From the UHGV virus genome UHGV-0087143: DNA of 11,682 nt; one strand, given 5' to 3'. Source of the stretch: a virus. The notes under the pieces are model-generated. The model ran no database searches, was not told the DNA's origin, and saw only the letters and a program-made list of their open reading frames with translations. Every line of letters starts with the position of its first letter. Within the stretch, counting starts at the first letter, position 1. The position numbers and the translations under genes were made by a program. Below are positions 1 through 11,682 of this stretch, one piece after another.

Positions 1-219
1 CTGATCCTGATCGTCTTGCCTTATTGAATATGATTGCTATTTGCATTTAAAATCGAGACCTGGTTTTTCTACTGAAATGATTATGACTTCAATGACCCTT
101 GAATGAAGTCTATTCGGTTTTCTTTAGATGTTCGCCTCACATAATCTTCAAGTGATGTTCCTTACATCTCCCTAGAGCGTTAAGATAGTTAACTGATTGA
201 GTTTTCAGGGTATGAAAGG

Positions 220-885
220 ATGAGCAACACTACCGACATCTTAAGCACGATAGCTGATATCACTATGGCTGGTACTGCTGTATGGGCTGCATTCAAAGCT
301 AATGATTGGTTTAAAACCAAGCGTCTTGAGAGTGCTGAAAACTTCTATAAAGAAGTACACAATCTCCATAAACGTTACTATTCAGCTATCCAATACGTTG
401 AGGATTCAAGAAGAATATTTGATAGTCAGTATGGGTTGCATTCGCCAATATCTGAACCTAAAGACAAGTCATTGCAATGGGGGGTTAAATCGAACTCTTA
501 CAAAATCATCGCTGAACTAGATTATCTGGCATCGTCACTACAAATGATGGATGCAATGGGTAACAAACTTAGCCCTAAATCGGCTTCACTGGTTAATGAT
601 ATGATGGAAGCACATGGACGATTCTGTAATGATGTGATGAACTTCAATGACTCAGTTTGGAAGGTTATAAGGGCAGGTATAACTGAAGAGAACATCCCAC
701 ATACGCGAGGCTATGTGAACGGCGATTACATGACTATCCTTACCAGTATGGATGAACCTGTAAGAATATCTTTTAGGTTAAAAGAAATCAGTTTTAAAGA
801 TTTTTACCTGCATGAAACTACTATGCAGTCAGTAATAACGAGGCTGAAATCGCTTATCGCCAGAACAGGTAAAAACAGGACATAA
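220..885 (+). CDS. Hypothetical protein, 221 aa, with N-terminal hydrophobic segment (ILSTIADITMAGTAVWAAF)
   Basis: Long ORF from ATG 220; weak SD-like AGGG 9 nt upstream; no domain recognised by eye. The 302-520 track ORF is nested in another frame and treated as spurious. Confidence 0.6.
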   Translation: MSNTTDILSTIADITMAGTAVWAAFKANDWFKTKRLESAENFYKEVHNLHKRYYSAIQYVEDSRRIFDSQYGLHSPISEPKDKSLQWGVKSNSYKIIAELDYLASSLQMMDAMGNKLSPKSASLVNDMMEAHGRFCNDVMNFNDSVWKVIRAGITEENIPHTRGYVNGDYMTILTSMDEPVRISFRLKEISFKDFYLHETTMQSVITRLKSLIARTGKNRT

Positions 886-897
886 ACAGGTTAGTAC

Positions 898-1015
898 CTA
901 TGCAATTTAAAGGCATTTTCCCAAGTATCTATGCAATCCTACACAGATTCTATGCAGTATCGATATAGTCTCTTTTTAGCGTAACCTATTGAAATATATA
1001 GAGAATCTATGAAGT
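898..1015. repeat. Cluster of four CTATG(C/A)A(A/G)T motifs (898-906, 929-937, 950-958, 1007-1015) plus a diverged ~22-bp direct repeat (965-986, 1011-1032)
   Basis: Read directly: cCTATGCAAT, tCTATGCAAT, tCTATGCAGT, tCTATGAAGT, all same strand; atagtctctttttagcgtaacc vs gaagtctcttttcagggtaaac. Confidence 0.5.
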
Positions 1016-1496
1016 CTCTTTTCAGGGTAAACTGTATCGTGTTAGTCGTCCCTCTCCAGACACTACATACAGTGCTATATACAGGGATATATAACGATAT
1101 ATAGTTGTTTGACCACTACCAATATTCCCTCAAAGTGACTATCAAGCTGCTTAACAGTTTCCCATGTGAAAGTTAGGAGGTGATGGTTATAGTTCCTTCG
1201 TAGTTCCTCTTAAAAAATCACTTGCAGACACCTTAATCTCTATACAGATTTCATGTAGAACACGATTAGTACGTAGAAGAGTCATTATGTTAAAAACACA
1301 CTGTGTTTATATCAGTACTGATTTATAAGGGTTTTGTGTATTGGGTGATAAGAGGCTATACAGCACCTTGAGAGCATGTCTTCTAAGTCATTGACATATA
1401 AGGTCACAGAAGTTTGTGTCTGTTACAGAGAAAACTGGACAGGACTTCACAGAACTATAAAATGTTACAGCTATTGATAGGTGAAATCTTCTTGAT

Positions 1497-1553
1497 AGAT
1501 GCTATGAAGTGTGATGAAGGCTTCTTGAGGTGGAGTTAACAGATGCTATGAAG
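1497..1553. repeat. Two perfect copies of 13-mer AGATGCTATGAAG, 44 bp apart (1497-1509, 1541-1553)
   Basis: Exact 13-bp direct repeat; shares the CTATGAAG core with the 898-1015 cluster. Confidence 0.6.
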
Positions 1554-2028
1554 AAAGTCAATAGTTGGTTATAGATATTTTAACTGCTTTTGCAAAGGGG
1601 GGTGCTATATCGTGAATCTGGGGTACTTAACAGCCATCAATCATGAGGTAGATTAGGGGTTGGTACAAGCCCAACTAACCGAATCAACTGTGTAGATATT
1701 TTTTAAGATTATCGGTGAAGGGGGAATGCAGAGGGGGTACTATGATTTTTATAAAAATTTTCAGAAGCCAAATAACCATTGTACAGATTTTATACAATCC
1801 TACCAAGCCTCATAGTTGATTCGATTAGGTGATTCAGTAATGAATTACTTCATGAAGCTAATCTCATAGAAAGCTCTGTAGCGAGTTTTAACCCCATTTT
1901 TAGGGGTAGTCTATAGGGATGTACCACCCACCTTAAAATAAAGGGGTAAAATCGCTTAGAATGCGTTACAGAGCGTCTGAGAAGCTATATTCACAGATTT
2001 TACTAAAGTCTCAGACTTCTAAGTAGTC

Positions 2029-2338
2029 TTTTTAACAGGAGGGGTTCCCCTATGGTCACATATCCCCTCTCTCGTTTAGTGGCCCTTGATAGCACCCGAT
2101 TAATAACCTAGAGAGTATGCCTGTAAAACTTCTGTATCAGGTCAACTATAAGAGGTCTGGATATTACCTTGTAAGATTCCTGGTAGTGATTATGCAGAGG
2201 GCTTGATAAGAGTGTTTAACGGGAGGAAGAGATATCTTTTTAACAGGAGGGTTCTTTCTCATGTATCACCCTCTCTTCCCGCTAAGTAAGCTACACAGAC
2301 CTAGAGAACATGCCTTCACAGCATCTATATCAGGTCAG
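2029..2338. repeat. Two diverged ~100-115-bp modules (about 2029-2145 and 2237-2338), each beginning TTTTTAACAGGAGGG
   Basis: Shared blocks in the same order: TTTTTAACAGGAGGG, CCCTCTCT(C)..TTAG, CCTAGAGA(G/A)(T/C)ATGCCT, TCT(G/A)TATCAGGTCA. Related CTCT(C)TCCCG(C/T)T(A/T)AG boxes recur at about 2727-2740 and 2910-2923. Confidence 0.6.
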
Positions 2339-2425
2339 ATTTAGAGGGTTTTGATAGAGTCTGTAAAGGTACTTGACAGGTAACTATGAAGTTGCTAGGA
2401 AGAGCTGTTTAACGGGAGGAAGAGA
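2213..2425. repeat. Perfect 20-bp direct repeat TGTTTAACGGGAGGAAGAGA (2213-2232 and 2406-2425)
   Basis: Exact match read in sequence; a related GTTTAACGGGGG lies at 3239-3250. Confidence 0.8.
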
Positions 2426-2847
2426 ACCATGAAACCGAAGGTAGGTTCTGTCTTAACAGTGAAGTCTTAAGAAATGTCTTGAGAGTTACCTAAACAAGCC
2501 TCTTAAGTAAAAGACAACACTCCAGAAAGAGTGTCTGTTTAACAAACTTCTCAAAAGCTCTTAAAAAGTCTGTTAAGAGAGGGCTATGTGAACATATCAT
2601 ACCATTTTGTCAATGCTTTTGTCTTTGACCTAAATCAATAAAATGTATCGTTTGATATGGTTTTAAGCAAGACGGCTAAAAAAATCTTTTTAGAGGGGCG
2701 CTTCGCTTGGGGTCACTATGTTCTTTCTCTCCCGTTAAGAGGGAAGTTACAGGGACATTTCAAAGCCCTGATAAGGTAAGCCCGATGATAACAGAAACAG
2801 AGGGCAAAACCACTTATCAACACTGTGAACGAATAACGTAAAGGGCT

Positions 2848-2884
2848 GGTTAAGAAGGTCGGTTAAGAAGGTCGGTTAAGAAGG
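2848..2884. repeat. Tandem array, about 2.8 copies of 13-bp unit GGTTAAGAAGGTC
   Basis: Copies at 2848-2860 and 2861-2873, partial copy 2874-2884; related TTAAGA(A/G)GG boxes at about 2464, 2570, 2735 and 2932. Confidence 0.8.
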
Positions 2885-2950
2885 GAGCTTCCCTTTCTTG
2901 GGTGTCGCTCTTCTCCCGCTTAGTGGATAGCTAAGAAGGCTTGAAGTTAT

Positions 2951-3126
2951 CTGTGAAGGTACTGGACAGTCTTATATATTGGGTGATTACAACTCGTTGA
3001 AAAATAAGTATTTTTAGAAATCACTGTTAAGGTTACAGAGTCAACTGTGAAGAGACTTGTCAGTTCTCTATATTGGGTGATTACAACTTATTGAAAAGTA
3101 AGAACTTTTAGAAATTACTGTCAGAG
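2951..3126. repeat. Two copies of a ~82-bp direct repeat (2951-3032 and 3045-3126), period 94 bp
   Basis: Identical 20-mer core TATATTGGGTGATTACAACT at 2975-2994 and 3069-3088 with ~85% identical flanks; partial third copy TATTGGGTGAT at 1339-1349; CTGTRAAGGTACTTGACAG-like heads also at 2361-2379. Confidence 0.8.
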
Positions 3127-3240
3127 AGGTGAATACTTGATAGATACAGCTTTCCGGTTCTGTCAAGCTATTTTTTAATAGATAGCACAAAATGCTAAAG
3201 ATACCCCTATACCATCTCGTACAGGGGGGGTTGAAGGAGT

Positions 3241-3429
3241 TTAACGGGGGTCTGTGTGGTTATCTGTTCTGGTCCTGTCCTTGAGGTCAAACGACCATTC
3301 ACGACCAAACAATCTGAACACGATAAACACTCTGACGATGAAATAGCGAAGTAGTAAGCCTGCAATCAGCCCAACACCTCCACCAGCCCATACATCAGGT
3401 GACCCCAGCTCAGGAGGGAGATTTACCAT
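3241..3429 (-). CDS. Small predicted membrane protein, 62 aa (one hydrophobic helix GGGVGLIAGLLLRYFIVRVFIVF, charged C-terminus)
   Basis: Track ORF on minus strand, divergent from the 3633 gene; weak SD GAAGG upstream; candidate promoter upstream. Could still be a chance ORF. Confidence 0.3.
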   Translation of the reverse strand: MVNLPPELGSPDVWAGGGVGLIAGLLLRYFIVRVFIVFRLFGREWSFDLKDRTRTDNHTDPR

Positions 3430-3514
3430 TCAATGTACCTTCTGTGTGCAATGCAAAAAAACATGTGACCATTCTCGATAGCCACGCTTCATATTTTCCC
3501 TCTCCCATAAACCC

Positions 3515-3544
3515 ATTATACCATAAATGTTAATAAATTGTTAA
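3515..3544 (-). promoter_or_regulatory. Candidate sigma70-type promoter (minus strand): TTAACA, 18-nt spacer, extended -10 TGGTATAAT
   Basis: Minus-strand -10 TATAAT is the complement of 3515-3520, TG of the extended -10 at 3522-3523, -35 TTAACA is the complement of 3539-3544. Confidence 0.4.
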
Positions 3545-3551
3545 AAAATAC

Positions 3552-3580
3552 TTGACATTAGTCTTTGAAACTGCTAGTAT
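3552..3580 (+). promoter_or_regulatory. Candidate sigma70-type promoter (plus strand): TTGACA, 17-nt spacer, TAGTAT
   Basis: TTGACA at 3552-3557 and TAGTAT at 3575-3580 with exact 17-bp spacing, ~50 nt upstream of the 3633 start codon. Confidence 0.5.
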
Positions 3581-3632
3581 TGTATATATAGTTAACAGGA
3601 AATTAACAAACACTAAGAGGGTCAGAATATGA

Positions 3633-4187
3633 ATGCAGGATTCAGAATTTAGAGCGATGCTTCAGGCATCAAGAGAACGCAACAAGCACAACTCCTACGC
3701 TTACACAGACACCCCCACCAGCTACGAAGTACCAGCCTTTTCCAAAACCGAACGTAAAAACATTGAAGCGGTCATTCGTAGCATTACGCCACGAGACAGA
3801 TTTATGCCAGTACGCAAAGAAAAAGAGAATACTTTAAAAACTTTCTTGATGAGCTTTGATTCTTACGAGCAACTACCATCAAAAATTGAAGATGTAATTA
3901 TCGGTACTTGTCGCAGTCTTGGAAGAGATAATTATCACCGGAAGGTTTTTTATTTACTGCGAAGTCTTGATGAGATTAGTTCAAGCACAGTGACGAGCCA
4001 TCTTCAAAGACAAGCAACCAGACTTAGCTACGAATTACCAAGTGATAAATATTGCGCTAACTTAGCCACTATTTGCATGAAAGTTATTGAGACAATTAAT
4101 CATCATGCGGAAGTTGGAAATATCAGCCTTACAACCAGTGAACCAGACTTTGAATTTGACGTATACGCACAAGCAGAGGAATTTTAA
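3633..4187 (+). CDS. Hypothetical protein, 184 aa, first gene of a rightward operon
   Basis: ORF with SD AAGAGG (3615-3620) upstream of ATG 3633; no domain recognised. The antisense track ORF 4062-4442 is treated as spurious. Confidence 0.65.
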   Translation: MQDSEFRAMLQASRERNKHNSYAYTDTPTSYEVPAFSKTERKNIEAVIRSITPRDRFMPVRKEKENTLKTFLMSFDSYEQLPSKIEDVIIGTCRSLGRDNYHRKVFYLLRSLDEISSSTVTSHLQRQATRLSYELPSDKYCANLATICMKVIETINHHAEVGNISLTTSEPDFEFDVYAQAEEF

Positions 4188-4188
4188 A

Positions 4189-4476
4189 ATGGAAAATAAA
4201 CACACACTAACCAGAGTTACAAAGACAGCCTTTGAAGAACTTAACCGAATCAAAAACATTACAGGTCTGCCACACTCAGCAGTGATGAAGCTTGCAATTA
4301 ACCGTGATATTAACGAACAAGATTTGCTTAATAGTCGCTTAGAGGCTGCAAGACACCATATCAGGATTAAGCAAGATGACCTTGATAGTCTGAAATCTTT
4401 AAATGCTTTTGGACTGGATTTAGCAAGGTTGCTAAGCATCAAAATTCACAAGTTAAAGTTAGAGATGGAGGTTTAA
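4189..4476 (+). CDS. Small putative DNA-binding protein, 95 aa, ribbon-helix-helix-like N-terminus plus C-terminal coiled coil
   Basis: Start chosen at ATG 4189 (GAGGA SD 8 nt upstream, directly after the upstream stop) instead of the overlapping in-frame track start 4087; N-terminal TRVTKTAFEELNRIKNITGLPHSAVMKLAI resembles a strand-helix-helix fold. Motif-level only. Confidence 0.5.
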   Translation: MENKHTLTRVTKTAFEELNRIKNITGLPHSAVMKLAINRDINEQDLLNSRLEAARHHIRIKQDDLDSLKSLNAFGLDLARLLSIKIHKLKLEMEV

Positions 4477-4862
4477 TGTATGACTTTTATAAACATCGTG
4501 ACCATTTGGTAAGATTTGACGGTAAAGTCTGGAAAGACGTAACACAAACCAATAAACCCAAGTTTACCCACCAGCAATTAGCCTCAAGATTTGATATCTG
4601 GACTGAAGCACAAAAAGATAATGGTGATTTCGAGTTTATCAGGGGTTTTGATTATGCTTACGAAGACGACCTTAAAGACGCCATTAAATTAATTGAGAAT
4701 TTCAACTCTATTAAAAATGGTGACAAGCACAAAGCCAATGGCAACAGATACGATAAAGATTTAATCATTGATGCAATCACCAAAGGACAATCACAAAGTT
4801 ATATTTCTGAGAAATACGGTTTATCACGCAGTCAATACTACAAGATTAAAGCGTCTGTGTAA
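4476..4862 (+). CDS. Putative helix-turn-helix DNA-binding protein, 128 aa
   Basis: Start ATG overlaps upstream stop (TAATG, translational coupling); C-terminal IDAITKGQSQSYISEKYGLSRSQYYKIK looks like a resolvase/sigma-region-4-type HTH. Confidence 0.6.
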   Translation: MYDFYKHRDHLVRFDGKVWKDVTQTNKPKFTHQQLASRFDIWTEAQKDNGDFEFIRGFDYAYEDDLKDAIKLIENFNSIKNGDKHKANGNRYDKDLIIDAITKGQSQSYISEKYGLSRSQYYKIKASV

Positions 4863-5000
4863 GCCTGTGAGAATGAGTGAGACTCAAAGATGAGCTACCC
4901 TATTACTAAGGTGTCTCACTCCCTCTGTAACCCGCATGGTTACTGGCCTCAGAATGGCTATTTTGGCAGATTTAAGATGTGTTTTTAGAGGATTTTAAAA

Positions 5001-5324
5001 ATGAACAATTACCCGCTACAGATTTTCGTTGATAGCGACACCGCTCTGATGATTCAGGCTTTCAGTGATTCCGGTGTATCAATTGACTTTGACAGGCTGT
5101 TAAGGCTAATGGCTAATAACTCAGAAACAATTGAAGATTTTATTCAGTCGGTGGAGTTTAACGAGCCTCGAATGATGCTACCAATTAAAGACAGCAACAT
5201 GAAAAGATTGGTTATCGAGCAAACGAACAAATACAGCGTTAGCCCTGAAAGATATCTCAAGGCAGCTATAGCAATTTTGTACGCTGACAATATTTTGGTG
5301 ACGGATTCGAAGGTGGTGCATTAA
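5001..5324 (+). CDS. Hypothetical protein, 107 aa
   Basis: ORF from ATG 5001; no domain recognised. Confidence 0.55.
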   Translation: MNNYPLQIFVDSDTALMIQAFSDSGVSIDFDRLLRLMANNSETIEDFIQSVEFNEPRMMLPIKDSNMKRLVIEQTNKYSVSPERYLKAAIAILYADNILVTDSKVVH

Positions 5325-5389
5325 TGGAATTGGTGATTATCTGTTTTGTATTGATTGGTATGATTGCAGGTGCATCTATTAAAGTATAA
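5324..5389 (+). CDS. Possible 21-aa hydrophobic peptide (MELVIICFVLIGMIAGASIKV)
   Basis: ATG overlaps stop of the 107-aa gene (TAATG); strong SD GAAGGTGG 7 nt upstream; entirely hydrophobic. Below the track length cut-off; speculative. Confidence 0.25.
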   Translation: MELVIICFVLIGMIAGASIKV

Positions 5390-5454
5390 ATGTTACCAAT
5401 CTGTTAAAAAGCTGTTGACAAATAACCTTAAGCATGACATAATTTTAATTATGG

Positions 5455-5481
5455 GAGAGTAATTCTCTCTTATATTTTTTT
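5455..5481 (+). terminator. Candidate rho-independent terminator for the 3633-5389 operon
   Basis: Stem GAGAG/CTCTC (5455-5459 / 5465-5469), loop TAATT, followed by TATATTTTTTT. Confidence 0.4.
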
Positions 5482-5659
5482 CAATAATCCGATGGATGGA
5501 TGGATATTCTGAGTTGGTGAGGTATGTTCTATACCGAACATTCTGAAAGGTGCAATGCTTTTCGCTACATGGCCTCTTATATAACCTGAGAGGTCATCTC
5601 GAAAAGTACTCTTGTTCATTCGTTTGAATCCTTCAGAAGTTTTAATTTCTTCACCTTAT

Positions 5660-5702
5660 GAATAGCCCTTTATAAGAAATTATCTAGGGCTATTCAGTTT
5701 TT
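5660..5702 (+). terminator. Candidate stem-loop/terminator: 10-bp stem GAATAGCCCT / AGGGCTATTC, 16-nt loop, then AGTTTTT
   Basis: Perfect 10-bp inverted repeat at 5660-5669 and 5686-5695; T-run only on the plus strand. Confidence 0.35.
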
Positions 5703-5776
5703 AAAAAGCATACTTGGCAAACCGCCTTTTAAGCCTCTTCTAAGTTCGAGGATGTCAGGTGTGCTTTTTAAAAACT
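5696..5776. promoter_or_regulatory. Perfect 15-bp inverted repeat pair AGTTTTTAAAAAGCA (5696-5710) / TGCTTTTTAAAAACT (5762-5776), 51 bp apart; operator-like
   Basis: Exact reverse complements; each contains the palindrome TTTTTAAAAA; ends 36 bp upstream of the 5812 start codon. Confidence 0.4.
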
Positions 5777-5811
5777 GAAACATAAATTATCTTAGAAGAG
5801 GAAAGGTATTA

Positions 5812-6516
5812 ATGGCTATCCGTGATGAAAATGAAATGATTATTGAAAGCCGACCAAGTGCACTTGATATTCACGAATTAACTTTGCGTGAATCTTTTGA
5901 TAGAGCTTGGCGGGAATCACACGAAGTAAATAAAGGTCCATATATTCCACCAGAACCACTCGAGATTCCAAGAGTTGAAATTGATTTTTCTATGAACGAA
6001 CAGTGTGAACTTGATTTGAAGTTGAAGCTACAACGCCGATATTTCCAAGCTATTAAAGACTCTCAAGAAGCAATGAGAAGTGTTTACGAGAAAATTCAGT
6101 CCAAGCTTGAAGACGAAATCGACGAAATGGCTATTTTGATGGAGCTTCAAACCAATTCTTATGCTTATTTCTCTCGACTAGACCGTGACGGTTGGGGGTA
6201 TGACCCTGTAGAGATTGGTAAAGTGATTGCAGATTTACCAGAAGGTCAAAGGGTTATTCGTACGGAAAGGGCCATCAGAGCGCCACATCGACTGTCTCTA
6301 ATTGTTGCTGATAAATCACAAGCTGAGCTTGAAGAAATTGCCAAAGAGAAACTGATGAAAGCAAGAGAAAATGAGATTAATTTGCTGAAATCAAGACTGG
6401 CTAAGCTGATTAGTGACCATCAAGCGCTGGCTAAGGAGTACCGTCAAGAGTTGGCACAGATTATCAGCTTCAATGATTTTCTGAGTGTTCCACGAGAATT
6501 TAGCAAGGCTGTTTGA
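5812..6516 (+). CDS. Hypothetical acidic protein, 234 aa, with C-terminal coiled-coil-like region
   Basis: ORF with SD GAGGAAAGG upstream of ATG 5812; no domain recognised. Confidence 0.65.
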   Translation: MAIRDENEMIIESRPSALDIHELTLRESFDRAWRESHEVNKGPYIPPEPLEIPRVEIDFSMNEQCELDLKLKLQRRYFQAIKDSQEAMRSVYEKIQSKLEDEIDEMAILMELQTNSYAYFSRLDRDGWGYDPVEIGKVIADLPEGQRVIRTERAIRAPHRLSLIVADKSQAELEEIAKEKLMKARENEINLLKSRLAKLISDHQALAKEYRQELAQIISFNDFLSVPREFSKAV

Positions 6517-6539
6517 TTATGAATTAAAAGAGGTGATTA

Positions 6540-6752
6540 ATGTTTGAAGAACGTTTAGAGACTATTCGGTCTGTTTGCGAAAGACTCCAGCTACAACCAA
6601 ATAGACAAAAGCTACGAATTAAGAATAACCGTCATTACATCACCTCACACAAACCAAAAACACGCAAGATTCCAAAGTGGTGTCTTGATAAATTACCAAG
6701 TGATTGTCAGATTGTCGGTGAAGATGGTAATTATTATCTTGTCAGACATTAA
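6540..6752 (+). CDS. Small basic protein, 70 aa (three Cys, Lys/Arg-rich centre)
   Basis: ORF with SD GAGGTG (6530-6535) before ATG 6540; function unknown. Confidence 0.5.
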   Translation: MFEERLETIRSVCERLQLQPNRQKLRIKNNRHYITSHKPKTRKIPKWCLDKLPSDCQIVGEDGNYYLVRH

Positions 6753-6802
6753 AAAAGAATTGGTTGGGTATATGAGATAGGTTCTATCGAATCTATAGTA
6801 CG

Positions 6803-6844
6803 GGGAGAGATTATCGATATTATTCGGTAGTTTCTCCCTTTTTT
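6803..6844 (+). terminator. Candidate terminator: stem GGGAGA/TCTCCC around a 24-nt loop (containing palindrome TATCGATA), followed by TTTTTT
   Basis: GGGAGA 6803-6808, TCTCCC 6833-6838, T6 at 6839-6844; loop unusually large so strength uncertain. Confidence 0.4.
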
Positions 6845-6893
6845 GTATATGAGGATAGTCTTCTATCCGAAGTCTATGAGGTGAAAAATATGA

Positions 6894-8978
6894 ATGAGCA
6901 AATTTACAGTTGATAGTTTTATTGTTGAGCTGGGCTTCAGTGAAAACGTTATTAAGGGATTGCAAAGAGTTGAAAAGGCAGCTTTGCAGTCAGCACAAAG
7001 AATTGAACGTAATTTGAATAGAGCGTTTAAGGTCGATACCAAGCAACTTGACAGCAATTTAACGGCTTCTTTAAAGTCAATGGAAGGGAAAATTAATAAG
7101 ACCTTTGACAAGATTGAGCAGCGTCTTAAAAACACTAGAGCGTTTAAGATTAAAACGGAAATTGAGGATACTTTAAAGCCACTTAGACAGCCAAGACAGC
7201 CACGAATTAGCGGCAACAGAGCAATCACAGCAGCTTATTCAGCGAATATGAGCAAGTTAAAGGGCTTTGACCCTATTTTGCAGAAATACATCAAATCTCA
7301 GTTTTACGGGCTATCTGCTAAAGCTGGGTCAATGGATAATTCAAAATTCAATGAGAAGTTAGCTCAGCTAAATGCTTCAGTCAGAGAAGCAATCACTAAA
7401 GCCAGAGGTCATACATCCACCAGCAAAAACAATCACAGTGAAAATGCTTCAAATGGTTTAGATGTATTAGCTACAAGTGCAATCAAAGCAGGTACAGCCA
7501 TTTATAGTTTTCAGACAGCCTTAGAAGCTTATAGGAAGGTTATGGAAGTTGGTCTGAAAAAAGAAGCATCACAACGAGCGGCACAATTCGTTTTAGGTGA
7601 TGAAGGTGCTAAACGAGCTACAGAATTTGTTAAGAATCTTGCTGATAGTAGTGGTGTAGACCAGATTGAAACATTAAGCAGTTTTGCTAAGTTTTCCGCT
7701 GGTGCTGGTGATATGAATGCAGACCAGAAAGAATCCTTATTTTCTAATGTGATTGGTACATCCCGACTAATGGGTTTAAGCACTGATGAGATTAACGGGA
7801 TTCTAAAAGCTTTCGAGCAGATGGCGAGCAAGGGCAAGATTCAAGCTGAAGAATTACGCGGTCAGTTAGGGGACAGAATGGCAGGTGCTTTTCAGTTATT
7901 TGCCAGAAGTCTTGGGATGACTACAGAAGAATTAGACAAGGCCATGAAGGACGGTAAGGTTCTTTCTAAAGATGTTCTTCCTAAAGTATCCGCTGAAATG
8001 GGAAGGATGATTGATAAAGCTGGTGGATGGGAAAAGATTATTAACTCTACTCAGACGCAGTTAGGCCGCCTTTCTAATTCATGGAATAATAATCTGGCCT
8101 TAATGTTCGACGGTTCACAGGAAGGTTTAACAGACTTTACAAGGTCACTGACTAATTTACTTAATTCACTAGGTGGTCAATCTAAAAATCTTGGTGAACA
8201 TTTTGGCGACTTGATGAAAAGCATGTCAAACGGTGTTGATGATTTAACCACGATTAGCTACCGAGCACAGGGATTCTTTGACAGAGTGACCCTTGCTTAC
8301 AGAGAATTAAATGACACTCAAAAAGCTGTAGCTGATGGTATCGCAAATGGCCTGTTAAGTGCATTAAAGGGGCTTGCTGGTATAGTCGCTGTAAGGTCTG
8401 GGATTGGTGCTGTAGGTGGTATCTGGAACTTAATTAGGGCTATTTCCACGCTTGGAAATGTAGCAAATACAGCAGCAGGAAGAATCAATTCACGTTCTGC
8501 TGGTAGTGTTGAAGGTGGTAAAGGAAAATTATCTGTAGCTGATGCAATTACCAAAGTAATGATTGTCGGTATGGCAACTGATGTGATTAACTCCATTGTT
8601 AAACCACTCTATGAACGCCAGATGAGTAAGTCAGATAATCCAATTGATAAAGTTGTAAGGTCAAAGGTGGAACCCACAGACCAAGCATTGACTGGTGACA
8701 TGAACTCTTTAGCTGCTGTTTTATGGGCTATGGTTCAGGGCAAATCAAAAGATGTTCCACAGTTTTCACCGGAAGCATTAAATAATCTGAAAGGTCGAGT
8801 GGAAACATTCACACAAGATTTAAAGGTTATCAAGCCGTCAGTAAATATTCAGCCTCAGACAATCAATATCACAACTCAGACGGTACTTGATGGAAAGGTT
8901 ATTGATGAAAGAACCACATCGCATATTAATCGTATGCAGGAAGATACCTTGATTAGCTCAGCTTACCCAGAGGAATAA
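6894..8978 (+). CDS. Phage tail tape measure protein-like, 694 aa
   Basis: Internal segment ...GLSTDEINGILKAFEQMASKGKIQAEELRGQLGDRMAGAFQLFARSLGMTTEELDKAMKDGKV... matches the conserved tape-measure core (ELRGQLGERLPGA-type motif); helical N-terminus and Gly/Ala-rich hydrophobic segment (GIANGLLSALKGLAGIVAVRSGIGAVGGIW) typical of tape measure proteins; SD GAGGTG (6878-6883) before ATG 6894. The four antisense track ORFs inside it are treated as spurious. Confidence 0.8.
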   Translation: MSKFTVDSFIVELGFSENVIKGLQRVEKAALQSAQRIERNLNRAFKVDTKQLDSNLTASLKSMEGKINKTFDKIEQRLKNTRAFKIKTEIEDTLKPLRQPRQPRISGNRAITAAYSANMSKLKGFDPILQKYIKSQFYGLSAKAGSMDNSKFNEKLAQLNASVREAITKARGHTSTSKNNHSENASNGLDVLATSAIKAGTAIYSFQTALEAYRKVMEVGLKKEASQRAAQFVLGDEGAKRATEFVKNLADSSGVDQIETLSSFAKFSAGAGDMNADQKESLFSNVIGTSRLMGLSTDEINGILKAFEQMASKGKIQAEELRGQLGDRMAGAFQLFARSLGMTTEELDKAMKDGKVLSKDVLPKVSAEMGRMIDKAGGWEKIINSTQTQLGRLSNSWNNNLALMFDGSQEGLTDFTRSLTNLLNSLGGQSKNLGEHFGDLMKSMSNGVDDLTTISYRAQGFFDRVTLAYRELNDTQKAVADGIANGLLSALKGLAGIVAVRSGIGAVGGIWNLIRAISTLGNVANTAAGRINSRSAGSVEGGKGKLSVADAITKVMIVGMATDVINSIVKPLYERQMSKSDNPIDKVVRSKVEPTDQALTGDMNSLAAVLWAMVQGKSKDVPQFSPEALNNLKGRVETFTQDLKVIKPSVNIQPQTINITTQTVLDGKVIDERTTSHINRMQEDTLISSAYPEE

Positions 8979-9212
8979 ACAATGTTAGAGCTACTAATAT
9001 TTATTGCCACACATGGCAACCTATTAATCTTTATCTAGTATGACGACTCAACTATGAATAGTCGAATGCTACGTGAAATCTCCTGAACAGATATACCCAC
9101 TGAAAAATAGAATTTACGTAGCTCACGCTTAACAGAGAAAATACTTATATATCAAAGGCTTGGTTAAAAATGACTGAAATACACTAAGTCTTTGAAATCA
9201 AAGGAGAATTTA

Positions 9213-9986
9213 ATGATTTACTCTAATCAGATTCGTTACAGTGGCAAAGATGGCATCTATTTCCACTTAAGAGATAATGTAGATGCCTTCTTAACTTTAT
9301 CAGCAACTGAGAACATGGAATTTGATAGCCCTATGCAGGTGACTACACAGAACATGCAATCAGGGCAAACCGTCACAGATAATGTGCAAAGAGCACCCAG
9401 AACAATCACTATTAGTGGTGTCGTTGTAGTTGGCTATGAAGGAAGCTTATTATTAACTCGTCAGGGTCAATTAGTAGAAAACTTCATCGACACCCTTGAA
9501 AGCTGGCGTGACCAGAAGCAGATTATTTCGGTCATCTGTAAAGATGGTATCAAGATTGATGACTCCATTATTACAAGTTTTAAAGCCTCTAAAGATGTTG
9601 GTATTTCAAATGGTCTAAGAATCCAGCTAACTTTTCAGGAAATTAACTTTAAAGCTGTTGTGGGGCAGACTGATATCTCGGCTGCAACTGGAAAAGCCGC
9701 GACTACGAATGATGGTGGTGTGACCAGTAAAAAGAATGCGGGTAACGTGACCACTGAACGCAATAACGCACCTATGCTGATGTGTCAGGAACTGTACAGT
9801 TACTCAGCATCTGAGCTATCTGATGAAGCGCTAAGGGTCCGTAGCAATTGCTCTAAAAATGTCACGGTGAAAGATGGTGTAAGCACCTTCACAGCCTCAG
9901 CTAATGAGCAGGCTTCAAAAGTGCTTAAGTCGGGTAATGCTTTACGGAAGTTTTCTGTGAATCCGAATAAGAAGGGCACTTATTGA
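9213..9986 (+). CDS. Hypothetical protein, 257 aa, downstream of the tape measure gene (possibly tail-associated by position only)
   Basis: Start chosen at ATG 9213 (SD AAGGAG 6 nt upstream) instead of the in-frame track start at 9192, which is a TTG codon; no domain recognised. Confidence 0.65.
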
Positions 9987-9990
9987 GACA

Positions 9991-10013
9991 TAAAAAGGGG
10001 CTTCATAGCCCCT
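9991..10013 (-). terminator. Rho-independent terminator for the recombinase gene, shared between convergent genes
   Basis: GC-rich stem AGGGGC/GCCCCT (9996-10001 / 10008-10013), 6-nt loop; on the minus strand the stem is followed by a U-run (complement of A-run 9992-9996); lies between the 9986 and 10019 stop codons. Confidence 0.6.
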
Positions 10014-10018
10014 GAAAA

Positions 10019-11539
10019 TTACAGTTGATAAGCGTCAATATCCAGTAGCTCTTTATCAGCAATTTCAAAGATTGGTGACCCATCATTTAGCGGTAACGGG
10101 TTTGTAGGTATGGTGATTTCAGTGTCGTTCTGTAGCGTTACAGTTACCGAATCCTTACCCAATGTAAGCCCTTTTAGATGTTTGGACAAAATCAACTGAC
10201 ACTCGACACGACCCGCTTTAGTTGTCAGGTCAATATCTTTAAGCTGGGGTAGTTCCTTATCAGTGAGTGAAGCCTTACGCCTCATGTTATCAATAGTAGT
10301 CTGTAGTTCTGTGCGCTTCTGGTTAAGTCCCTTCACCTGTGCTTTCAACTCTGTAATGTCATCCATTTCAAGAAGTAGGGCGGTAGCTTTCTTGATTCTG
10401 GCTGTGACAATTTCAACCTCATGCTGTAGAGATGCAATCTTCCCCTCTGCTTCTCCATCATTCCCCACGTCAATCATCCCCAGAAAATTATCAATCATCC
10501 ATCGGTCAAACGGTTTACGCTTCAACGGTGGAACATCACAGCGACCGTCTAAGTGGTTATTGCACCTGTAGACCCCTGCATACTTATTCTTGGTTCCGGT
10601 AGGATGGACACTAGCCCCACACTGACACCGGAATAATCCCTTGAAGATGTTAATCGTTAATGGGTTATCACTTGCAGGTGTGCGGCCTTTACGATTCTTG
10701 TCGAGAATCTCTTGAGCTTTATTGAACGTTGCAGCATCTATAGCGGCTTCGTAGTAGTTCGGTATAGCGGGGCGGTCATTACGCTGTGATGCTGGTAACG
10801 TGCCTATTGTTGTCTCCGACCTTAAGATGGTGCGTACAGAATGGACGCTAAACCCATTAGCATCTTTACGGCGACTAAACGACTTTATACCGTTGCTTTG
10901 AAGGTGACGGGCGATGTTATGCAGACTTTCACCACTTAGCAGCAGCTTGAAAATCAGTCTTACAGTCTCAGCGTGTTCATTGAGTTTGAGAGTATCGGGG
11001 TCAATCCATCCGGGAACCATCTTTGTTAAACGTTGTTTACCAGCAAGGGCAAGTTTTGCACGTTGTTTCCACTTCTCGCTAACACGGAAAGACTTCTGCT
11101 TACTCTCCTGATGCGCTAGGTAGCTTTTAACCCGCTGAATGATTGAGATTCCTAAATCATCGGATAGAGCATCCCTTGTGTAGATTAGCCCATCCTGTAG
11201 AGTGTGAATCTCGATACCATGAGCAATAATGCGATTCATCAAGGCTTCTGTTTCAAGATGCTCTAATCGGCCTATACGGTCGATACTCTCAACTAGCAGA
11301 ATTGTACCTCCTGGAAACTCCCCAGCCTCAATACGGGCTAACATGTCACCAAACTGACCAGTAAGGTGTTTACCTTTGTAACCGGATAGACCCTCATCAC
11401 TGAAAGACGCTACTACTTGAGCATCGCTATTCTTCTTCAACCATTGTTTGAACAGGTCGTTTTGTCGTCTGGTTGAATCAGCACCTTCAGCACCTTGTGT
11501 GGCTGATGAGAATCTCAAGTATGTTATTACGGTTCTCAC
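10019..11539 (-). CDS. int: Large serine recombinase (serine integrase), 506 aa
   Basis: N-terminal resolvase-type catalytic domain with the serine nucleophile motif (YLRFSSATQ) and downstream LLVESIDRIGR; central recombinase region; Cys-rich zinc-ribbon-like segment (CQCGAS...YRCNNHLDGRCD); C-terminal coiled-coil-like region. GTG start with SD GGGAG 9 nt upstream. Antisense track ORFs 10263-10571 and 10914-11111 treated as spurious. Confidence 0.9.
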   Translation of the reverse strand: MRTVITYLRFSSATQGAEGADSTRRQNDLFKQWLKKNSDAQVVASFSDEGLSGYKGKHLTGQFGDMLARIEAGEFPGGTILLVESIDRIGRLEHLETEALMNRIIAHGIEIHTLQDGLIYTRDALSDDLGISIIQRVKSYLAHQESKQKSFRVSEKWKQRAKLALAGKQRLTKMVPGWIDPDTLKLNEHAETVRLIFKLLLSGESLHNIARHLQSNGIKSFSRRKDANGFSVHSVRTILRSETTIGTLPASQRNDRPAIPNYYEAAIDAATFNKAQEILDKNRKGRTPASDNPLTINIFKGLFRCQCGASVHPTGTKNKYAGVYRCNNHLDGRCDVPPLKRKPFDRWMIDNFLGMIDVGNDGEAEGKIASLQHEVEIVTARIKKATALLLEMDDITELKAQVKGLNQKRTELQTTIDNMRRKASLTDKELPQLKDIDLTTKAGRVECQLILSKHLKGLTLGKDSVTVTLQNDTEITIPTNPLPLNDGSPIFEIADKELLDIDAYQL

Positions 11540-11611
11540 GGTGATAAACTCCCATGCAATTGATTATCATTTAAAGATGAACTTATAAACGTTATGGCTA
11601 ATGCTACAATG

Positions 11612-11640
11612 CCGAATAGCTACAATACAATGACCCTTGA
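11612..11640. other. Candidate recombinase attachment-site junction (right end), partner of 90-117
   Basis: CCGAATAG, 8-nt spacer, CAATGACCCTTGA, ~75 bp upstream of the recombinase start; sequence beyond 11640 turns GC-rich (CCTCGCCGCTTCCCCTGGCCGACG). Confidence 0.3.
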
Positions 11641-11682
11641 TTTACCTCGCCGCTTCCCCTGGCCGACGTTACTTTCGGTCTG

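What the first reader, a model, noticed from the sequence alone, without database searches (positions are those of the whole stretch)
2848..2884. Iteron-like 13-bp tandem array embedded in a field of TTAAGA(A/G)GG boxes
About 2.8 head-to-tail copies of GGTTAAGAAGGTC, with further TTAAGARGG-like boxes scattered at about 2464, 2570, 2735 and 2932, resemble initiator or partition-protein binding arrays.
Basis: seen in the sequence. Interest (0 to 1): 0.5.

Follow-up and report, generated by a model that had tools for sequence, protein, structure and literature searches.

The report
Helper-phage-like binding-box array in a satellite
A perfect triple repeat in the large gene-free stretch of an E. 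coli chromosomal island copies a short DNA box that Felix-O1-type phages carry next to their own genome ends, so it is probably a docking site through which the island exploits its helper phage.

Summary
The array is real: GGTTAAGAAGGTC, 2.8 perfect copies at 2848-2884. Only one of the four "scattered boxes" matches TTAAGARGG exactly; the others have 1-2 mismatches.

The window is an ~11.4-kb E. coli island. It has a serine integrase and tape-measure and Dit-like tail genes related to Felixounavirus. It has no GATC at all, like phage wV8.

Its 2.7-kb gene-free region shares short motifs, in scrambled order, with the phage's own 1.65-kb gene-free region that holds the terminal repeat (10-mers: 80 shared against at most 34 for any other phage stretch). 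Sharing is densest at the array. The phages carry the same box as a conserved pair, TTAAGAAGGTTGTTAAGAAGG, about 0.5 kb inside the left genome end.

Among island relatives the copy number is 2, 3 or 4 in otherwise near-identical DNA. In 14 of 17 distinct versions at least two boxes precede the conserved module; three have one plus an insertion.

I found no Rep or Par gene, no RNA-structure signal and no collinear homology with the phage region.

Best reading: a protein-binding array that imitates a helper cis-site used in replication or packaging. Binding and function are inferred, not shown. I found no published description of this island family.

The parts
2848..2886 (.). 13-bp tandem array GGTTAAGAAGGTC x2 plus GGTTAAGAAGGGA; core box (G)TTAAGAAGG
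   Evidence: TRF, 100% matches, score 74; pattern search. Best local alignment is to the phage wV8 double box at 15437-15457, 20/22 identical. This is the densest patch of 10-mers shared with the phage.
2874..2925 (.). Conserved module that starts in the last box: a purine tract, two pyrimidine tracts, then CCCGCTTAGTGG. Modules of similar layout recur at 2032-2079, 2240-2285 and 2690-2739.
   Evidence: Present after the boxes in all homologues; motif search. A single-strand fold is not better than shuffles and there is no covariation.
2931..2943 (.). Downstream box CTAAGAAGGCTTG
   Evidence: 12/12 identical to phage wV8 15307-15318 TAAGAAGGCTTG. A box is present at this position in most homologues.
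2735..2743 (.). Upstream box TTAAGAGGG, inside the conserved CCCGTTAAGAGGGAAGTTACAG
   Evidence: Exact match; the AAGAGGG core is invariant in the 10-sequence alignment.
2450..2486 (.). Degenerate three-unit tandem GTCTTAACAGTGAA / GTCTTAAGAAAT / GTCTTGAGAGTT. It includes the left arm of inverted pair I4 (2452-2470); the right arm is at 3013-3031.
   Evidence: Read; I4. The right arm is conserved in nearly all homologues, the left arm in about half.
2569..2583 (.). Box TCTGTTAAGAGAGGG
   Evidence: TCTGTTAAGA occurs three times in the phage terminal repeat region, at 14435, 14770 and 14832.
2680..2709 (.). 30-mer AAAAATCTTTTTAGAGGGGCGCTTCGCTTG, invariant in all 10 aligned homologues
   Evidence: Alignment A1.
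2814..2822 (+). Single DnaA-box-like 9-mer TTATCAACA (8/9), 26 bp upstream of the array
   Evidence: Not conserved in the second clade.
2945..3121 (.). Two 83-nt direct repeats (2945-3027 and 3039-3121, 82% identical), each with an A+T-rich palindrome and the word TATATTGGGTGATTACAA
   Evidence: the repeat finder D1 and D3; A+T of 78% or more at 3000-3039 and 3080-3119.
886..3632 (.). The whole ORF-free region of the island, which shares a motif vocabulary with the Felixounavirus terminal noncoding region
   Evidence: ORF list. Shared 10-mers: 80 against a mean of 19 and a maximum of 34 for other phage windows, z=10. z=5.4-8.9 against Markov nulls. The excess is seen in 10 of 11 island right blocks tested.
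1568..1601 (+). Segment resembling the right boundary of the phage terminal repeat (GATATTTTAA...TGCAAAGGGGG)
   Evidence: 27/34 identical to wV8 14897-14928, E=0.013 for the small pairwise search space.
1058..1106 (.). CTATATA-type repeats resembling the phage's ACTATATA repeats, which lie next to the phage double box
   Evidence: TRF 1063-1093; local alignments to wV8 15391-15422.
3633..4187 (+). Conserved first gene after the noncoding region (184 aa, no family). A candidate DNA-binding protein, but its alleles do not track the box variant.
   Evidence: No Pfam, PHROG, NCBIfam, PADLOC or PDB match. AF2 model pLDDT 56. Two allele groups mix freely with box types.
6894..9986 (+). Tape-measure gene (6894-8978) and Dit-like tail gene (9192-9986), related to Felixounavirus gp73 and gp74
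   Evidence: Pfam TMP_3 and Dit_like. tblastn to wV8: 30% and 76% identity. 95% nucleotide identity over 9237-9746.
10019..11539 (-). Large serine recombinase (integrase) at the island's right end
   Evidence: Pfam Resolvase + Recombinase + Zn_ribbon_recom. Island lies between yciI and tonB.

Best explanation
The array is a cluster of three adjacent binding sites for a sequence-specific DNA-binding protein. It sits inside a noncoding region that imitates the terminal, repeat-bearing noncoding region of the helper phage genome.

The window is a putative satellite of Felix-O1-type virulent myoviruses. Those phages carry the same box as a conserved pair (TTAAGAAGG, 12-bp spacing) beside an A+T-rich ACTATATA repeat, about 0.5 kb inside the left genome end and just outside the ~0.6-kb direct terminal repeat.

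I propose that the protein recognising the phage pair, most likely phage-encoded, also binds the island's array during infection. Binding would nucleate a complex that lets helper machinery acting at the phage terminus work on island DNA. That machinery would be replication initiation next to the easily melted repeats or, about equally likely, terminase and concatemer processing for packaging. Extra copies, gained by slippage, would raise avidity and could also compete with the helper for the protein.

Shown: the array itself, its conservation and copy-number variation, the shared box and vocabulary with the phage terminus, and the island's kinship with the phage. Inferred: protein binding, who the binder is, helper dependence, and the process served.
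For: - The array is perfect and far from chance.
- The island has an integrase and Felixounavirus-related tail genes. It occurs at three or more chromosomal sites, and 441 of 5426 complete E. coli genomes match the noncoding stretch 2400-3200.
- It has 0 GATC in 11.4 kb (40 expected). wV8 has 0 in 88.5 kb (311 expected). The flanking chromosome has the normal number.
- In phage wV8, 3 of 8 TTAAGARGG sites lie in the 1.65-kb ORF-free region 13885-15560, two of them in tandem. The pair is identical in Felix O1 and Pr103Blw, present as variants in Suspvirus and Mooglevirus, and found in 40 IMG/VR contigs, 18 of them 81-94 kb, about a Felixounavirus genome.
- That phage region contains the physical genome ends and the terminal repeat. 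The repeat is annotated at 1-581 in Pr103Blw, and several records start at wV8 position ~14351. A 608-bp repeat was determined experimentally in UAB_Phi87 (PMC4837284). Genes converge on the region from both sides.
- Shared 10-mers between the island and phage noncoding regions: 80, against a mean of 19 and a maximum of 34 elsewhere in the phage, z=10. Island coding DNA as a control gives z~1. Against order-2 to order-4 Markov nulls z is 5.4-8.9. Sharing peaks at 2801-2900, which contains the array.
- Ten of 11 island right blocks share more 10-mers with wV8 than with any background window. L005 is 21 against a maximum of 19, which is marginal, and L016 only equals its maximum with Felix O1.
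- At least two boxes precede the conserved module in 14 of 17 distinct versions, across clades 72-99% identical.
Against: - No experiment shows binding, replication or packaging.
- The function of the phage region itself is unknown in the literature I could search.
- Similarity to the phage is a scrambled vocabulary on both strands, not collinear homology. The longest collinear chain is 6 hits against a null mean of 6.5. A shared word bias of unknown cause is therefore not excluded.
- Copy number varies from 2 to 4 in near-identical DNA, and three relatives carry an insertion inside the array. The exact number and spacing are therefore not essential.
- The 13-bp spacing is off the helical repeat, whereas the phage boxes are spaced 11-12 bp.
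- The helper relationship is inferred from sequence only.
Confidence: 0.5

Rival explanations
1. A classical iteron origin. The array would be bound by an island-encoded initiator, as PLE RepA binds the iterons in the PLE noncoding region, and would fire replication of the excised island.
For: - PLE, the model satellite of a virulent myovirus, also has a 2.7-kb noncoding region with four repeat families. Its origin iterons lie there (PMC7145576).
- Here there are direct repeats, one 8/9 DnaA-like box 26 bp upstream, and A+T-rich stretches of 78% or more about 180 bp upstream and 115 bp downstream.
- Several island proteins have no known function and could hide a new initiator.
Against: - No Rep family is detected in Pfam, PHROGs, NCBIfam, PADLOC or PDB sequences.
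- Alleles of the conserved 184-aa protein do not track the box variant.
- The 128-aa HTH protein is replaced by other genes in islands that keep the array.
- The DnaA-like box is not conserved.
- The box is shared with the phage genome, which a private initiator does not explain.
Confidence: 0.15
2. A neutral slippage product. The noncoding region is a decaying, rearranged remnant of phage DNA, and the perfect 13-bp copies are a recent microsatellite-like expansion with no role of their own.
For: - The first two units are identical, and the third differs only in its last two bases. Both point to recent expansion.
- There are 2, 3 and 4 copies in near-identical relatives, and insertions are tolerated inside the array.
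- Similarity to the phage is not collinear.
Against: - In 14 of 17 distinct versions at least two boxes are kept at the same place, in clades that differ by up to ~28% elsewhere.
- The box pair is conserved across three genera of Ounavirinae.
- The vocabulary is enriched well beyond composition-matched nulls.
Confidence: 0.2
3. A transcriptional control region. The boxes would be operators or promoter elements, or RNA polymerase decoys, that switch island genes on after infection.
For: - Promoter-like sites number 15 against 6.7 +/- 2.9 in shuffles. Several use TTAACA, the box word, as the -35 hexamer.
- Divergent promoters lie at 3515-3592, just downstream.
Against: - The array is about 750 bp from the operon start, and a minus-strand gene and its terminator lie between them.
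- In the phage the boxes are concentrated where genes converge, not upstream of genes. The other TTAAGARGG sites checked lie in coding or tRNA sequence.
Confidence: 0.1
4. Part of a structured noncoding RNA or a terminator-like hairpin.
For: The last box can pair with the following pyrimidine tract (AGAAGGGAGCTTCCCTTTCT). One bulged base changes from T to C while the pairs are kept.
Against: - No Rfam match even at E<=1.
- Folding energy is no better than shuffles, z=+0.68.
- The covariation term is 0.05, with 2 of 12 pairs showing any double change.
- No T-run follows the hairpin.
Confidence: 0.03

Closest known systems
PLE of Vibrio cholerae: 2.7-kb noncoding region with origin iterons bound by RepA_N (PMC7145576)
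   Same: Both are chromosomal islands with a large serine recombinase tied to a virulent myovirus. Both have a ~2.7-kb gene-free region packed with several repeat families. Tandem repeats are proposed (here) or shown (PLE) to be the cis-site for helper-dependent replication.
   Different: PLE iterons are semi-palindromic repeats bound by a PLE-encoded RepA_N protein. Here no Rep is recognisable, and the unit is a 13-bp direct repeat. The box is shared with the helper's own genome terminus, and nothing has been tested.
Helper packaging-site copies in satellites (P4 cos, cos/pac sites of SaPIs and PICIs); from my own knowledge
   Same: The satellite carries DNA that resembles a cis-acting site of its helper, so that helper machinery acts on it.
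   Different: Those are close, contiguous copies of a defined cos or pac site. Here the likeness is a scrambled set of 10-25-nt words plus an amplified box. The function of the phage site is unknown.
Short-repeat arrays flanking the terminal repeat and concatemer junction of T7-type phages; from my own knowledge
   Same: The comparison is with the phage side: a short exact direct terminal repeat embedded in arrays of short direct repeats in a noncoding junction region.
   Different: The sequences are unrelated and the phage family is different. Whether Felixounavirus terminase reads these boxes is unknown.
Iteron origins of plasmids and lambdoid phages (for example lambda ori, P1 oriR, R6K, pSC101); from my own knowledge
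   Same: Tandem direct repeats lie near A+T-rich DNA and a DnaA-like box.
   Different: Classical iterons are 17-22 bp, usually spaced in helical phase, and paired with a cognate Rep gene nearby. None of these holds here.
Partition centromeres built of short repeats (R1 parC, pSM19035 heptad arrays); from my own knowledge
   Same: Arrays of short contiguous direct repeats bound cooperatively by a small DNA-binding protein.
   Different: The island has no partition ATPase or adaptor gene, and the element is integrated in the chromosome.

Membership tests
Iteron-type replication origin | Three or more direct repeats of about 17-22 bp, usually in helical phase | tested here: inconclusive
   2.8 contiguous copies of a 13-bp unit. 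The unit is shorter than typical and off-phase. Copy number is 2-4 in relatives.
Iteron-type replication origin | Cognate initiator (Rep) gene in the same element | tested here: not met
   No Rep family among the 11 ORFs in Pfam, or among the 10 non-integrase ORFs in PHROGs, NCBIfam and PADLOC. No PDB relatives for the 184-aa and 234-aa proteins. The AF2 model is too poor to search. A novel initiator cannot be excluded.
Iteron-type replication origin | Adjacent A+T-rich unwinding element and host-factor boxes (DnaA, IHF) | tested here: inconclusive
   A+T of 78% or more at 2631-2670, 3000-3039 and 3080-3119. One 8/9 DnaA-like box at 2814. No IHF consensus. The DnaA-like box is not conserved.
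Iteron-type replication origin | Supports initiator-dependent replication | not testable with these tools
   Needs replication assays or marker-frequency sequencing during infection.
Partition centromere (parS/parC type) | Adjacent partition genes (ParA/ParB, ParM/ParR or equivalents) | tested here: not met
   No such families in any island ORF. The element is chromosomally integrated.
Helper cis-site mimic carried by a phage satellite | Sequence likeness to a cis-acting noncoding site of the helper genome | tested here: met
   Array against the wV8 double box, 20/22. Shared 10-mers z=10 against other phage windows and z=5.4-8.9 against Markov nulls. Seen in 10 of 11 island right blocks tested. 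Not collinear.
Helper cis-site mimic carried by a phage satellite | The element is a satellite of that phage: excision, replication and packaging depend on it | not testable with these tools
   Supported only indirectly: integrase plus Felixounavirus-like tape-measure and Dit genes, total GATC avoidance shared with wV8, and several integration sites.
Helper cis-site mimic carried by a phage satellite | The helper site has a defined function (pac, cos or ori) | not testable with these tools
   The boxes lie ~0.5 kb from the terminal repeat, in the region that holds the genome ends. No functional study was found.
Structured noncoding RNA | Match to a curated family, or a stable fold with covariation | tested here: not met
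   Rfam gives 0 hits at gathering score and at E<=1. Fold z=+0.68. Covariation term 0.05.

The most novel reading that the evidence does not exclude
The window is a member of a so far undescribed, PLE-like family of satellites of virulent Felix-O1-type phages. DNA matching its noncoding region occurs in about 8% of complete E. coli genomes. The satellite carries no recognisable initiator or terminase of its own. Instead its 2.7-kb noncoding region is a reshuffled imitation of the helper's genome terminus. The amplified TTAAGAAGG array would be the site where the helper's terminus-binding protein is captured. That capture would both get the island replicated or packaged and starve the phage of the protein.
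Probability: 0.3. Interest if true: 0.8.

Novelty: new variant of a known kind. Interest (0 to 1): 0.55.

Why it matters
Satellites of strictly virulent phages are known in depth from one system, PLE and ICP1 in Vibrio cholerae. If this E. coli island works as proposed, it gives a second, genetically tractable case, in a model host with widely used phages of the Felix O1 group.

It would also point to a defined 9-10-bp box as a handle on two unknowns. One is how the island is recognised by its helper. The other is what the large gene-free terminal region of Felixounavirus genomes does.

The box pair in the phage and the array in the island are small, mutable targets, so the idea is directly testable. 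The variation of the box between island clades and between phage genera could record an arms race or helper specificity.

Tried and rejected
1. Known RNA families: none at Rfam gathering score or at E<=1. No tRNA or tmRNA.
2. Hairpin or structured RNA around the array: folding no better than shuffles and no covariation.
3. Collinear homology between the island and phage noncoding regions: rejected. The longest collinear chain is 6 against a null mean of 6.5, and hits are split 20/22 between strands.
4. A recognisable Rep, Par or defence protein: none in Pfam, PHROGs, NCBIfam, PADLOC or PDB sequences. The first attempts failed on a frame error.
5. Structure of the 184-aa protein from a single sequence: pLDDT 56, unusable, so no fold search was run. 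The listed homologues are all 85% or more identical, so no deeper alignment could be built.
6. Co-variation of the 184-aa protein alleles with the box variant: none.
7. Relatives outside Escherichia: a conserved 20-mer found only E. albertii plus one chance hit in 185,579 species genomes. There was no plasmid match, and three island-type matches in IMG/VR.
8. Literature on a Felixounavirus or Ounavirinae satellite, or on the function of the phage noncoding region: nothing found.
9. A 'pseudo terminal repeat': inverted boxes at 2452-2470 and 3013-3031 enclose about 580 bp, close to the phage's 581-bp repeat. The left arm is found in only about half of the homologues, so this stays a lead, not a result.

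Full report
**The observation.** Tandem Repeats Finder confirms the array exactly as described: 2848-2884, period 13, 2.8 copies, 100% matches, consensus GGTTAAGAAGGTC. Its score of 74 is the highest in the window. The third unit runs on as GGTTAAGAAGGGA to 2886. Exact TTAAGARGG occurs five times in the window against 0.29 expected, and none of 200 shuffles reached five.

Of the four 'scattered boxes', only 2735 is exact. 2931 (CTAAGAAGG) and 2573 (TTAAGAGAG) have one mismatch, and 2457 (TTAAGAAAT) has two. The idea of a field of boxes still holds when the motif is widened. TTAACAG, GTTAAGA, TAAGAGG and TTAAGAG are each 5-12 times over-represented in the gene-free region relative to the rest of the window.

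**The setting.** The window is an ~11.4-kb island inserted between yciI and tonB of E. coli. From left to right it carries:
- a 221-aa gene of unknown function;
- a 2.7-kb stretch without ORFs (886-3632);
- a small minus-strand gene (3241-3429) with its own promoter and terminator;
- an operon of small unknown genes;
- a tape-measure gene and a Dit-like tail gene;
- a large serine recombinase.

The Dit-like gene is 95% identical in DNA to Felixounavirus phages over 510 bp and 76% identical in protein overall. The tape-measure protein is 30% identical to that of phage wV8. No other island protein has a wV8 relative.

Relatives of the noncoding stretch 2400-3200 occur in 441 of 5426 complete E. 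coli genomes, always on the chromosome. The sampled relatives sit at three or more insertion sites. Outside Escherichia coli I found only E. albertii.

The island has no GATC at all in 11.4 kb (40 expected). Phage wV8 has none in 88.5 kb (311 expected). The chromosome next door has the normal number.

Taken together this is a mobile, phage-related element without capsid, terminase or replication genes. That is what one expects of a satellite of Felix-O1-type phages. I found no paper describing such an element.

**The array among relatives.** I aligned the region in 20 island copies from E. coli, E. albertii and IMG/VR contigs; they give 17 distinct versions.
- The close clade has 3 copies.
- L012 has 2 copies. 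It is otherwise identical to the window over the 285 nt shown, apart from 2 nt at the very start.
- L005 has 4 copies. It matches the window upstream of the array but diverges after it.
- Other clades have two diverged units at the same place. Examples are GTCGTTTAAGAGGTCGGTTAAGAAAGG, CTGGTTAGGAGGTCGATTAAGAAGG and TTGTCAAGAAGGTTTTTAAGAAGG.
- Three copies have one unit, then an inserted hairpin-like segment, then an altered box (TTAGAAGG or TTAGAAAGG).

In every case the last box runs into a conserved module (GAGCTTCCCTYTCT...CGCTCTTCTCCCGMTTAGTGG). In most copies another box follows (CTAAGAAGGCTTG). Having boxes at this position is conserved.

**The key comparison.** Because the tail genes point to Felixounavirus, I read the whole wV8 genome. 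Three of its eight TTAAGARGG sites fall in one 1.65-kb gene-free region (13885-15560), and two of them are in tandem: TAAGATTAAGAAGGTTGTTAAGAAGGATAG. That region is a dense field of TGTTAAG-type boxes, many spaced 11 bp apart.

The region contains the physical ends of the genome.
- Several Felixounavirus records begin at the position equivalent to wV8 ~14351.
- Pr103Blw annotates a 581-bp direct terminal repeat that starts GCCCCCTTAACA and ends TGTTAAGGGCTAC.
- A 608-bp terminal repeat was determined experimentally for UAB_Phi87 (PMC4837284).
- Genes converge on the region from both sides.

The TTAAGAAGG pair lies about 510 bp to the right of the repeat, directly after three ACTATATA repeats. 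The pair is identical in wV8, Felix O1 and Pr103Blw. It appears as variants in Suspvirus (TTAAGTAGGCTGTTAAGAAGG) and Mooglevirus (CTTAGAGAGGGTGTTTAGAAGG). The exact pair is present in 40 IMG/VR contigs, 18 of them 81-94 kb, about the size of a Felixounavirus genome.

**How strong is the link?**
- The island's gene-free region shares 80 10-mers with the phage's gene-free region. Other phage windows of the same size share 19 on average and 34 at most (z=10). Island coding DNA used as a control gives z~1.
- Against Markov-chain nulls of order 2 to 4 built from the island sequence, z is 5.4-8.9.
- Sharing is densest at 2801-2900, which contains the array.
- The array is among the best local alignments: TTAAGAAGGTCGGTTAAGAAGG against TTAAGAAGGT-TGTTAAGAAGG.
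- Ten of 11 island right blocks share more with wV8 than with any background window. L005 is marginal at 21 against 19.
- Other shared words include the boundary of the phage terminal repeat (island 1568-1601), the ACTATATA repeats (1058-1106) and TTTTATAAAAATTTT (1747).

The likeness is not collinear. Hits fall on both strands equally, and the longest ordered chain is no longer than chance. So this is a shared vocabulary of short sites, not a simple diverged copy.

**What it most likely does.** Short words concentrated in the one phage region where no promoter is needed, kept across phage genera, and kept in an island that depends on that phage, are best explained as protein-binding sites.

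I therefore read the array as a multimerised copy of a helper cis-site. In this reading a protein that binds the phage pair, most likely phage-encoded, also binds the island. It brings terminus-associated helper functions to the island's DNA. The position beside easily melted repeats suggests replication initiation. The position next to the terminal repeat suggests terminase or concatemer processing. I cannot tell these two apart.

More copies would bind more tightly and could also titrate the protein away from the phage. All of this mechanism is inference. Only the sequence relationships are shown.

**Rivals.**
- A private, PLE-style iteron origin is attractive because PLE has the same layout (PMC7145576). 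But no initiator is recognisable. The conserved 184-aa protein falls into two allele groups that mix freely with the box variants. A private initiator also would not explain the sharing with the phage.
- Neutral slippage explains the near-identical copies and the 2/3/4 polymorphism. It does not explain conservation of boxes at this position across clades and phage genera.
- A promoter or operator role has some support from an excess of promoter-like sites that use TTAACA as the -35 hexamer. It fits poorly with where the boxes sit in the phage.
- An RNA structure is not supported.
- A partition site is not supported: there are no partition genes and the element is integrated.

**Verdict.** The added value is the link to the helper's genome terminus. 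I rate this a new variant of a known kind, that is, a helper-site mimic in a satellite, in an island family that appears to be undescribed. Interest is moderate to good because the hypothesis is sharply testable.

Noticed in passing
window 10-11682; phage wV8 (L023+L024): GATC is completely absent from the island (0 seen, ~40 expected) and from phage wV8 (0 seen, ~311 expected). The adjoining E. coli chromosome has 29 in 5.9 kb. Some sister islands carry a Dam-type adenine methylase as cargo.
   Followed up: partly
window 1949-1991: A 43-nt stretch (AAATCGCTTAGAATGCGTTACAGAGCGTCTGAGAAGCTATATT) is ~91% identical to noncoding DNA a few hundred bases from the record end of T5-like Salmonella phages (Epseptimavirus). 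The surrounding segment 1873-2018 also recurs, inverted and ~70% identical, downstream of the HNH gene in sister islands.
   Followed up: partly
window 2027-2425: A tandem duplication with ~190-210-bp offsets (repeat families D2, D7, D11). In sister islands a cargo gene lies just upstream of this stretch: a small resolvase-type recombinase, a DNA adenine methylase or an AP2/ERF-type regulator. The window itself has no cargo gene.
   Followed up: partly
window 3241-3429 (minus strand), promoter 3544-3515, terminator 3227-3204: A small 62-aa ORF with a hydrophobic stretch has a near-consensus promoter (11/12 with extended -10) and its own terminator. It is annotated as hypothetical in several relatives. 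It could be a membrane peptide or toxin.
   Followed up: no
window 9237-9746 versus 6894-8978: The first ~510 bp of the Dit-like gene is ~95% identical in DNA to many Felixounavirus genomes, which suggests recent exchange. The neighbouring tape-measure protein is only 30% identical to the phage's.
   Followed up: partly
window 2452-2470 and 3013-3031: Inverted boxes (CTTAACA... / ...TGTTAAG) enclose about 580 bp that includes the array. That is close to the 581-bp phage terminal repeat, which is bounded by the same kind of inverted boxes. The left arm is found in only about half of the relatives.
   Followed up: partly
window 4476-4862 and L001 10482-10945: The 128-aa protein with a weak C-terminal helix-turn-helix is replaced in many sister islands by a small ORF plus an HNH endonuclease. 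This is a variable slot inside the conserved operon.
   Followed up: no
window 3633-4187 and homologues: The conserved 184-aa protein has two allele groups that are ~60-66% identical to each other. They are distributed independently of the noncoding-region clade, which indicates frequent recombination between islands.
   Followed up: yes
loci L002, L005-L009, L017, L022: The island family uses at least three chromosomal insertion sites: yciI/tonB, rutG/ymdF, and yecN next to a truncated DUF72 gene. Several copies are interrupted by IS elements.
   Followed up: partly
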